From: Escherichia coli | GTDB lineage: Bacteria; Pseudomonadota; Gammaproteobacteria; Enterobacterales; Enterobacteriaceae | Reading direction: 5' to 3' (one strand) | DNA length: 64,000 nucleotides | Assembly (NCBI RefSeq): GCF_003018235.1 | Contig: NZ_CP027437.1 | Part shown: positions 63,001 to 64,000 of the stretch, one piece after another | Numbering within the stretch: position 1 is the stretch's first letter | Layout: each line of letters starts with the position of its first letter | Position numbers: made by a program

Positions 63001-64000
63001 GGATAACGCAGTGATGGAGAACTTCTTCGGCGCACTGAAATCGGAGTGTTTTTACCTGAACAGGTTTAGCGATCTGAATGAACTGAGGAAAGCGATAGAG
63101 GACTATATCCATTATTATAACAACGAGCGGATCAGCCTGAAATTAAAAGGCCTGAGTCCGGTAGAATACCGAACTCAGGCCCTGAAAGCCGCTTAACATG
63201 AACTGTCCAACTTTATGGGGGCAGTCCATCCATGAGGGCTTTTTTTGTGCACAGAAAATCCCCTGCTAGGCTGAGGGGGGGGCCGGAAAGCTTTCAGCTT
63301 TGAGCCAGTTATTAAAACCCTTTTGATTTGTTAAAACACCTTGCGGTCTGGCAACTGCAAGTGTCAAACAAGAAATCAAAAGGGGGGGCTAATGGGGAAC
63401 AAAGAGAGCTTAGCGCACACCCGATTGAACGATAAATCTCACATATTTTTTGCGCCAAAATACCGAAGACAGGTGGTAAGGTAATCCCCCCGAAAAAACC
63501 GGTGCGATGTCCGGGTTAGGAAAGAGGATTACTGATGTCTTTTGCATAAATTCTCAATCACCGTCGTCAGGTCTAGGTTCTGATCCTGCAACAGCACCAG
63601 CAGGTGATACATCAAGTCCGATGCCTCGTTGGTCAGTTCGAAGCGGTCATGTACTGTGGCGGCCAGTGCTGTTTCCACGCCTTCTTCGCCCACTTTCTGC
63701 GCAATGCGTTTGGTGCCGCTGGCATACAGTTTGGCGGTATAGGAGGTTTCCGGATCGGCAGATTTACGTTCGGCGAGCAGTTGTTCCAGTTGATACAGGA
63801 ACAGCCATTGGTGAGCGGTGTCGCCGAAGCAGCTGCTGGTGCCTTTGTGGCAGGTCGGGCCGATGGGATTCGCCAGCAACAGTAACGTGTCGTTGTCGCA
63901 GTCCGGCGTAATATTTACTACGTTGAGGAAATTGCCCGACGTTTCGCCTTTGGTCCACAGTCGCTGTTTAGTGCGCGAGAAGAAGGTGACTTTGCCGCTT

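What the first reader, a model, noticed from the sequence alone, without database searches (positions are those of the whole stretch)
63262..63528. IS200-like fragment with truncated tnpA and homopolymer tracts next to hisI
A 30-codon ORF (MGNKESLAHTRLNDKSHIFFAPKYRRQVVR) resembles the N-terminus of IS200 TnpA but diverges and stops early. It is preceded by a leader resembling the IS200 left-end hairpin region and flanked by G8/C7 homopolymers. This is probably an internally deleted IS200 copy.
Basis: partly seen in the sequence, partly recalled or inferred. Interest (0 to 1): 0.4.

Follow-up and report, generated by a model that had tools for sequence, protein, structure and literature searches.

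The report
Dead IS200C left-end fragment beside hisIE
This is the first 227 bases of a 710-base IS200C insertion sequence, left as a dead remnant between a decayed IS3 element and the histidine operon in an E. coli O-antigen region; it is ordinary and already annotated as a pseudogene in public genomes.

Summary
Window 63247-63475 matches nt 1-227 of IS200C (92.2% identity, E 3e-92). It carries the whole tnpA 5'UTR, which gives a full-length Rfam STnc490 match (111.9 bits against a threshold of 56). It also carries the first 28 of 152 transposase codons (22/28 identical).

The "internally deleted" reading is wrong. Nothing from IS200C nt 228-710 occurs anywhere in the 64 kb window. The ORF stops early because codon 28 is fused directly to the native 3' flank of hisIE, which includes the his terminator. 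So this is a 3'-truncated copy with no right end.

The G8 tract lies inside the decayed left-end terminator hairpin, and its length varies from G7 to G10 between strains. The supposed C7 tract is C6 and belongs to the hisIE flank.

The element inserted directly after a terminator hairpin plus T-run, as four other IS200 copies at independent sites do. That hairpin was later split by a now-decayed IS3-family element (61784-63228).

RefSeq annotates the same locus as a partial IS200/IS605 transposase pseudogene in five complete E. coli genomes.

One oddity remains. The 105-nt 5'UTR has no substitutions against IS200C, while the flanking IS200 sequence has 14 (p about 1e-4). This leaves a small chance that the remnant is retained as an sRNA locus.

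The parts
61769..61781 (.). Left arm (with its A-run) of a bidirectional terminator-type hairpin, 55 nt downstream of the ugd stop. It is now separated from its right arm by the IS3 element.
   Evidence: I11: 13 nt, 100% complementary to 63232-63244. Sequence.
61784..63228 (+). Decayed IS3-family insertion sequence (1445 bp) inserted in the loop of that hairpin. Its transposase reading frame carries frameshifts and an internal stop.
   Evidence: 25-nt terminal inverted repeats TGGACTG.../...CAGTCCA (I1). HTH and rve Pfam domains on the broken ORFs. RefSeq annotates 'IS3 family transposase; frameshifted; internal stop'. The nearest other copies are 93% identical. Flanking triplets are TCT and TCC.
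63232..63246 (.). Right arm of the split hairpin plus its T7 run. This is the host sequence directly after which IS200C inserted.
   Evidence: I11. Four other IS200 copies at independent sites also start GTGCACAG directly after a different hairpin plus T-run.
63247..63475 (+). IS200C remnant, equal to IS200C nt 1-227 of 710: left end, 5'UTR and 28 tnpA codons.
   Evidence: blastn 92.2% identity, E 3e-92, the only significant IS200C match in the window. Alignments. Annotated as a partial pseudogene in five RefSeq genomes.
63258..63282 (+). Decayed left-end hairpin I (the IS200 nt 12-34 terminator), including the G8 tract at 63275-63282.
   Evidence: Compared with IS200C it has a 3-nt insertion and 4 substitutions. 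MFE is -14.6 kcal/mol (z +1.4) against -21.1 (z -2.6) for the intact copy. Tract length is G7-G10 among strains.
63257..63382 (+). Full-length match to Rfam RF01405 (STnc490, the IS200 tnpA leader / art200 region).
   Evidence: 111.9 bits against a gathering score of 56, E 4.6e-23, model positions 1-124 of 124. Intact IS200C scores 146.4 bits.
63318..63384 (+). 5'UTR stem-loop II (IS200 nt 69-138), which sequesters the Shine-Dalgarno sequence (AAGGGGG at 63380-63386, inside the run that ends at 63388).
   Evidence: I9. Fold of 63285-63400: -36.8 kcal/mol, z -3.2. Coordinates of the element are from PMC4513863.
63392..63484 (+). Truncated tnpA pseudogene. Codons 1-28 are IS200-derived (to 63475). 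Two flank-encoded codons and a TAA stop follow.
   Evidence: 22/28 identity. No Pfam hit for the 30 aa, while the intact 152-aa TnpA hits Y1_Tnp across residues 11-129.
63313..63402 (-). Position corresponding to the antisense sRNA gene art200 (IS200 nt 154 down to about 64). Its likely -10 (TAAGCT, 63407-63412) is kept. Its likely -35 (TTTACA in IS200C) is TTTATC here (63431-63436).
   Evidence: Mapped from the coordinates in PMC4513863 onto the alignment. The promoter hexamers are my inference from the sequence. Expression was not tested.
63477..63528 (-). Native hisIE 3' flank with the his-operon terminator-like hairpin (63499-63519, followed on the minus strand by T6 at 63498-63493) and the C6 tract (63486-63491).
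   Evidence: Shared with the hisIE flank of strain KSC64 from 63494 onward. Folds. The hisIE stop codon is at 63529-63531.

Best explanation
This is a dead, 3'-truncated remnant of an IS200C insertion sequence (IS200/IS605 family).

Likely history:
1. An IS200C copy inserted immediately after the T-run of a bidirectional terminator hairpin downstream of ugd. Its tnpA pointed toward hisIE.
2. A deletion then removed IS200 nt 228-710 and whatever lay beyond. This fused codon 28 of tnpA to DNA about 15-20 bp outside the his-operon terminator.
3. Separately, an IS3-family element inserted into the loop of the upstream terminator hairpin and has itself decayed.

The order of steps 2 and 3 is unknown.

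The remnant has neither the right end nor the transposase (no HUH motif, no catalytic tyrosine), so it cannot move or make TnpA. The remaining sequence is decaying:
- Conserved N-terminal residues are replaced (W12L, C14D, Y16S, V19F).
- The left-end terminator hairpin is weakened.
- Two G runs have grown and vary in length between strains.

Shown: the homology, the boundaries, the absence of a right end, the identity of the flank, and the split hairpin. Inferred: the order of events and the insertion-then-deletion history.
For: - IS200C nt 1-227 matches 63247-63475 at 92.2%, E 3e-92. It is the only IS200C match in the 64 kb window.
- Full-length Rfam STnc490 hit at 111.9 bits.
- 22/28 identity to the TnpA N-terminus. 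The intact TnpA is 152 aa with Y1_Tnp over residues 11-129.
- The sequence after the breakpoint matches the hisIE flank of KSC64.
- Hairpin arms at 61769-61781 and 63232-63244 are 100% complementary and bracket an IS3 element with 25-nt inverted repeats.
- Four other IS200 copies at independent sites begin GTGCACAG right after a host hairpin plus T-run. A further copy overlaps the annotated thr leader region in CFT073 (junction not inspected). Enrichment of terminators upstream of IS200/IS605 elements is reported in bioRxiv 10.1101/2025.07.22.666184.
- Five complete E. coli genomes and one metagenome contig carry the same locus. RefSeq annotates the five genomes as 'IS200/IS605 family transposase, incomplete, missing C-terminus'.
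- Truncated IS200C fragments of many kinds are common in E. coli: nt 1-337, 1-182, 177-324, 571-710 and others.
Against: - No genome with the ancestral state was found among 5,426 complete E. coli genomes. That state would be an intact IS200 here, or the hairpin without the IS3 element. The event history is therefore inferred, not observed.
- Substitutions against IS200C are very uneven: 0 in nt 34-138 and 14 in the other 122 nt. Uniform neutral decay does not predict this.
Confidence: 0.93

Rival explanations
1. The remnant survives as a stand-alone small-RNA locus. It would express the structured 5' part of the tnpA transcript (the 5'tnpA sRNA that regulates host genes in Salmonella) and/or the antisense art200 RNA, and purifying selection would keep that part intact while the rest decays.
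For: - nt 34-138 (105 nt) is identical to IS200C apart from a 1-base deletion in a C run. The other 122 nt of the fragment carry 14 substitutions (Fisher p 1.3e-4; p 0.016 on a conservative count of 7).
- The conserved block closely matches the tnpA 5'UTR and the processed tnpA-110/-90 species (TSS at bp 40).
- Another IS200 pseudogene (strain 165) has 5-6 substitutions in the same UTR, so the UTR is not a mutational cold spot.
- Four of the five carrier genomes have no other IS200 sequence.
- The fold is retained.
Against: - Both regions expected to drive transcription are damaged. The bp 1-40 tnpA promoter region carries an insertion, substitutions and a length-variable G tract. The best -35-like hexamer for art200 changes from TTTACA to TTTATC.
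- No sigma-70-like promoter is called in 63100-63600.
- Five coding substitutions cluster in 21 nt and may be a single event. If so, the remnant may be young and the contrast with the UTR is much weaker.
- An intact 96%-identical variant (GF43) also has an identical UTR with diverged coding sequence. Part of the contrast may therefore date from before the element died.
- E. coli keeps IS200 fragments of every kind, not preferentially the leader.
- There are no expression data.
Confidence: 0.06
2. This is an internally deleted IS200 that keeps both ends.
For: The downstream sequence GAAAAAACCGG...CCGGG looks superficially like the hairpin at the IS200C right end, GAAAAACCTCCGG...CCGGAGG.
Against: - blastn with word size 7 finds nothing from IS200C nt 228-710 near the fragment or elsewhere in the window.
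- The downstream hairpin is shared with the hisIE flank of strain KSC64.
Confidence: 0.01

Closest known systems
IS200C (IS200/IS605 family, IS200 group) of Escherichia coli, 710 bp
   Same: nt 1-227 are homologous at 92%. The fragment has the same start (GTGCACAG...) directly after a host terminator hairpin plus T-run, the same 5'UTR with the SD-sequestering stem-loop, and the same first 28 codons in frame.
   Different: It lacks nt 228-710, that is 124 of 152 codons and the whole right end. The left-end terminator hairpin is degraded. Conserved N-terminal residues are replaced. It is a pseudogene fragment, not an element.
Rfam RF01405 STnc490 (IS200 tnpA leader / art200 region; art200 and 5'tnpA sRNAs of Salmonella, PMC4513863 and PMC5435999)
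   Same: Full-length match above the gathering score (111.9 against 56). Stem-loop II and the first ~100 nt of the tnpA transcript region are identical to IS200C.
   Different: The score is 35 bits below intact IS200C (146.4) because hairpin I is damaged. The presumed promoter regions for both RNAs carry mutations. Expression and any target in E. coli are unknown.
Other truncated IS200 fragments in E. coli chromosomes and plasmids, e.g. nt 1-337 and 1-182 on plasmids, nt 571-710 on pO157-type plasmids, and an IS200H fragment next to ugd in strain THO-010
   Same: They are the same kind of object: partial IS200 copies left by deletions or by other IS insertions, often at junctions of mobile or recombining regions.
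   Different: This one is more diverged (about 8%) from any intact copy. It is fixed in one O-antigen/his junction haplotype.

Membership tests
IS200 group of the IS200/IS605 family (functional element) | Nucleotide homology to the IS200 left end, starting at the element's first base | tested here: met
   IS200C nt 1-227 = 63247-63475, 92.2% identity, E 3e-92. The start is shared with four other copies.
IS200 group of the IS200/IS605 family (functional element) | Intact tnpA encoding a roughly 152-aa Y1 (HUH) transposase (Pfam Y1_Tnp) | tested here: not met
   Only 28 codons remain. The 30-aa product has no Pfam hit, whereas the intact TnpA hits Y1_Tnp at 130.7 bits over residues 11-129.
IS200 group of the IS200/IS605 family (functional element) | Right end (about nt 566-710) with its subterminal hairpin | tested here: not met
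   No match to IS200C nt 228-710 anywhere in the window. The downstream DNA is hisIE flank.
IS200 group of the IS200/IS605 family (functional element) | Left-end terminator hairpin (nt 12-34) | tested here: inconclusive
   It is recognisable but degraded: a 3-nt insertion, mismatches, and MFE -14.6 kcal/mol (z +1.4) against -21.1 (z -2.6) in the intact copy.
IS200 group of the IS200/IS605 family (functional element) | 5'UTR stem-loop (nt 69-138) sequestering the Shine-Dalgarno sequence | tested here: met
   Arms at 63318-63332 and 63370-63384. Fold -36.8 kcal/mol, z -3.2. Rfam structure match.
Rfam RF01405 STnc490 / art200 sRNA gene | Covariance-model score at or above the curated gathering threshold | tested here: met
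   111.9 bits against 56, full model length.
Rfam RF01405 STnc490 / art200 sRNA gene | Functional promoter and detectable transcript | not testable with these tools
   The likely -35 is mutated (TTTACA to TTTATC) and the likely -10 is kept (promoter logic). The consensus scan finds no promoter, but the real art200 -10 is described as almost unrecognisable.

The most novel reading that the evidence does not exclude
The remnant is not just debris. Its 5'UTR block (63281-63386, IS200 nt 34-138) would be kept under purifying selection as a host sRNA gene of the 5'tnpA and/or art200 type, after the transposase was lost. That would make it a natural example of an IS200 leader domesticated on its own in E. 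coli.
Probability: 0.06. Interest if true: 0.45.

Novelty: already known. Interest (0 to 1): 0.1.

Why it matters
It matters little on its own merits. It is a correctly recognisable IS200 pseudogene fragment that RefSeq already annotates, and such fragments are common in E. coli.

It is useful as a marker of the rearrangement history of this O-antigen/his junction: an O89/O101/O162-type cluster with no wzzB. It also adds another example of IS200 landing directly after intrinsic terminators.

Only the low-probability reading would be of wider interest. A conserved leader kept as an sRNA gene would bear on the idea that IS200 persists because its RNAs serve the host.

Tried and rejected
- **Right end or internal deletion.** I searched the whole window for IS200C nt 228-710 (blastn, word size 7). 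Nothing was found, so this reading is rejected.
- **Ancestral state.** I built the hypothetical pre-IS3 sequence (hairpin rejoined, followed by IS200) and searched 5,426 complete E. coli genomes. No genome has it.
- **Intact IS200 lineage with the remnant's unusual codons (L12, D14, S16, F19).** There were 0 exact hits in one genome for each of 100,044 species. The single metagenome hit is the same locus. These changes are therefore specific to the remnant.
- **Was wzzB removed by the truncating deletion?** The ugd 3' flank here shares nothing with the usual ugd-wzzB spacer, so I cannot tell.
- **Is the upstream hairpin part of IS200?** Rejected. The hairpins differ in sequence at five independent sites, so they are host terminators.
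- **Consensus promoter scan.** It found nothing. This is uninformative, because the known IS200 promoters are themselves poor matches to consensus.

Full report
**What is in the sequence**

The stated ORF is real. It has an ATG at 63392, 30 codons and a TAA stop at 63482-63484. Its first 28 residues align without gaps to IS200C transposase at 22/28 identity (BLASTP E 7e-14).

At the DNA level, IS200C nt 1-227 aligns to window 63247-63475 at 92.2% identity (E 3e-92). The IS200C reference was taken from E. coli strain 7/2 as locus L002 positions 1225-1934. This is the only significant IS200C match in the whole 64 kb window.

Rfam's STnc490 model (RF01405) matches 63257-63382 over its full length at 111.9 bits, against a gathering score of 56 (E 4.6e-23).

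The homopolymers are as follows:
- G8 at 63275-63282
- G7 at 63382-63388
- C6 (not C7) at 63486-63491

**Boundaries and anatomy**

Published IS200 landmarks come from PMC4513863 and bioRxiv 10.1101/2024.06.26.600842:
- terminator hairpin at nt 12-34
- tnpA transcription start at about bp 40
- SD-sequestering stem-loop at nt 69-138
- art200 5' ends at nt 153/154

These map cleanly onto the window if nt 1 is 63247. The features then fall at:
- hairpin I: 63258-63282
- stem-loop II: 63318-63384 (I9; fold -36.8 kcal/mol, z -3.2)
- SD: AAGGGGG at 63380-63386, inside the G run that ends at 63388
- ATG: 63392

Homology to IS200C stops at nt 227-229, exactly after codon 28.

The following 50 bases (63477-63528) are not IS200. 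From 63494 onward they align with the region downstream of hisIE in strain KSC64, including the terminator-like hairpin and T-run of the his operon. The ORF therefore "diverges and stops early" because it runs into host flank.

With no right end present, this is a 3' truncation, not an internal deletion.

**Surroundings**

Just left of IS200 nt 1 lies ATGAGGGC followed by T7 (63232-63246). This is perfectly complementary to AAAAAGCCCTCAT at 61769-61781, 55 nt downstream of the ugd stop (I11).

Between the two arms sits a 1445-bp IS3-family element (61784-63228):
- It has 25-nt terminal inverted repeats (I1).
- It has HTH and rve domains on broken reading frames.
- RefSeq annotates it as frameshifted with an internal stop.
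- It is 93% identical to its nearest relatives.

The original site was therefore a bidirectional terminator hairpin (GCCCTCA-TCCA-TGAGGGC with an A-run and a T-run). IS200C sat directly after it, and the IS3 element later entered the hairpin loop.

Four other IS200 copies at independent sites each begin GTGCACAG immediately after a different host hairpin plus T-run. These sites are pheP-ybdG, ccmH-narP, ybiJ-hcxB and one in strain 165. A further copy overlaps the annotated thr leader region in CFT073, though I did not inspect that junction. [quoted passage not shown] The left boundary therefore looks like a genuine transposition junction.

**Distribution**

Five complete E. coli genomes carry the identical arrangement: ugd, IS3 pseudogene, IS200 fragment, hisIE. 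They are NCTC10973, SCPM-O-B-7615, -12142, -9504 and 2017.17.03CC. RefSeq labels the fragment 'IS200/IS605 family transposase; incomplete; missing C-terminus'. One metagenome contig also carries it.

The locus sits at the end of an O89/O101/O162-type O-antigen cluster that uses an ABC transporter and has no wzzB.

Across the window and the five genomes, the fragment differs only at these positions:
- the T-run (T7 or T8)
- one SNP at 63264
- the first G tract (G7 to G10)
- the second G tract (G6 or G7)

Whether the tract-length differences are real slippage or assembly error cannot be decided here.

Truncated IS200C pieces of many kinds are frequent in E. coli: nt 1-337, 1-182, 1-498, 177-324, 571-710 and others.

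**Decay**

Against IS200C the fragment shows the following changes:
- four substitutions and a 3-nt insertion in nt 1-33
- three substitutions between the SD and the ATG
- seven substitutions in the 28 codons

All the coding substitutions change the amino acid. They include W12L, C14D, Y16S and V19F. From my own knowledge of the IS608 TnpA sequence (not tested here), C14, Y16 and V19 fall in a motif shared with that distant relative.

Hairpin I folds at -14.6 kcal/mol (z +1.4), against -21.1 (z -2.6) for the intact element. The Rfam score drops from 146.4 to 111.9 bits.

The intact TnpA needs residues 11-129 for its Y1_Tnp domain. The published catalytically dead mutant is Y125F. None of this can be made here. 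The fragment cannot transpose and cannot supply transposase.

**An unexplained detail**

The 105 nt from nt 34 to 138 carry no substitution, only a 1-base loss in a C run. The other 122 nt carry 14 substitutions. Fisher's test gives p 1.3e-4. A stricter count of 7 gives p 0.016; it omits substitutions next to the G tracts, those in the N-terminal tail, and the window-specific SNP.

The UTR is not a cold spot. A different IS200 pseudogene (strain 165) has 5-6 changes there.

Possible explanations:
- selection on the leader RNA(s)
- a past conversion patch from an intact IS200C
- differences that predate the element's death, since an intact 96% variant (GF43) also has an identical UTR with diverged coding sequence
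- few, clustered mutational events rather than steady decay

Supporting the last option, five coding changes lie within 21 nt (63426-63446). Four of them turn the sequence into a 17/21 inverted match of IS3 segment 62484-62504:
- This is the only match of at least 16/21 in the whole window.
- The IS200C version matches that segment at only 13/21 (derived from the substitutions listed).
- The IS3 core GAGATTTATC is conserved in a 93% relative.

This could reflect a templated multi-base mutation, or it could be chance. My rough estimate is p 0.002-0.02.

Against an sRNA-gene reading, both presumed promoter regions are hit. The bp 1-40 region carries the insertion and the variable G tract. The best -35-like hexamer for art200 changes from TTTACA to TTTATC. 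The paper states that the -35 is the better-matching promoter element and that mutations in the predicted -10/-35 elements reduce art200.

**Comparison with what is known, and verdict**

The object works like nothing in particular. It is a pseudogene fragment of IS200C.

It meets the left-end homology and leader-structure criteria. It fails the two criteria that define a functional element, namely an intact Y1 transposase and a right end.

It is already annotated in public genomes. Novelty is 'already known' and interest is low.

Noticed in passing
window 61769-61781 and 63232-63246, with 61784-63228 between them: A perfect bidirectional terminator-type hairpin downstream of ugd has been split in its loop by a 1445-bp IS3-family element. 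That element is now itself a pseudogene (frameshifts and an internal stop). The flanking triplets, TCT and TCC, look like a decayed 3-bp target duplication.
   Followed up: yes
L002 1190-1232; L006 ~880-925; L014 ~125-160; L015 ~110-150; window 63232-63254: At five independent sites IS200 begins GTGCACAG immediately after a different host hairpin plus T-run. A further copy in CFT073 overlaps the annotated thr leader region (junction not inspected). This suggests IS200 inserts directly 3' of intrinsic terminators, and it fits a recent preprint on terminators upstream of IS200/IS605.
   Followed up: partly
window 63275-63282, 63382-63388, 63240-63246: Homopolymer lengths differ among the window and five RefSeq genomes: first G tract G7-G10, second G tract G6/G7, T-run T7/T8. 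Both G tracts grew from G5 runs of IS200C partly by changing neighbouring bases to G. Real slippage and assembly error cannot be told apart here.
   Followed up: partly
window 63426-63446 versus 62484-62504: Five remnant-specific substitutions cluster in 21 nt. Four of them create a 17/21 inverted match to a segment of the neighbouring IS3 element, the only match of at least 16/21 in the 64 kb window. This may be a templated multi-base mutation, or it may be chance.
   Followed up: partly
window ~35000-63500 (by correspondence with L005): The O-antigen cluster is of the O89/O101/O162 type with wzm/wzt ABC transporter genes. It has an extra block of genes between gnd and ugd, and no wzzB between ugd and hisIE.
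   Followed up: partly
window 63529-63800: The 3' part of hisIE is only about 86-93% identical to that of most E. coli genomes and at least 99% identical only in the five carrier genomes. This suggests the his-proximal flank was imported or is an old divergent allele that travels with this O-antigen cluster.
   Followed up: no
L016 612-833 (E. coli THO-010): A different IS200 fragment (IS200H type, missing its N-terminus) lies just upstream of ugd in another strain. IS200 debris thus recurs at O-antigen cluster junctions.
   Followed up: no
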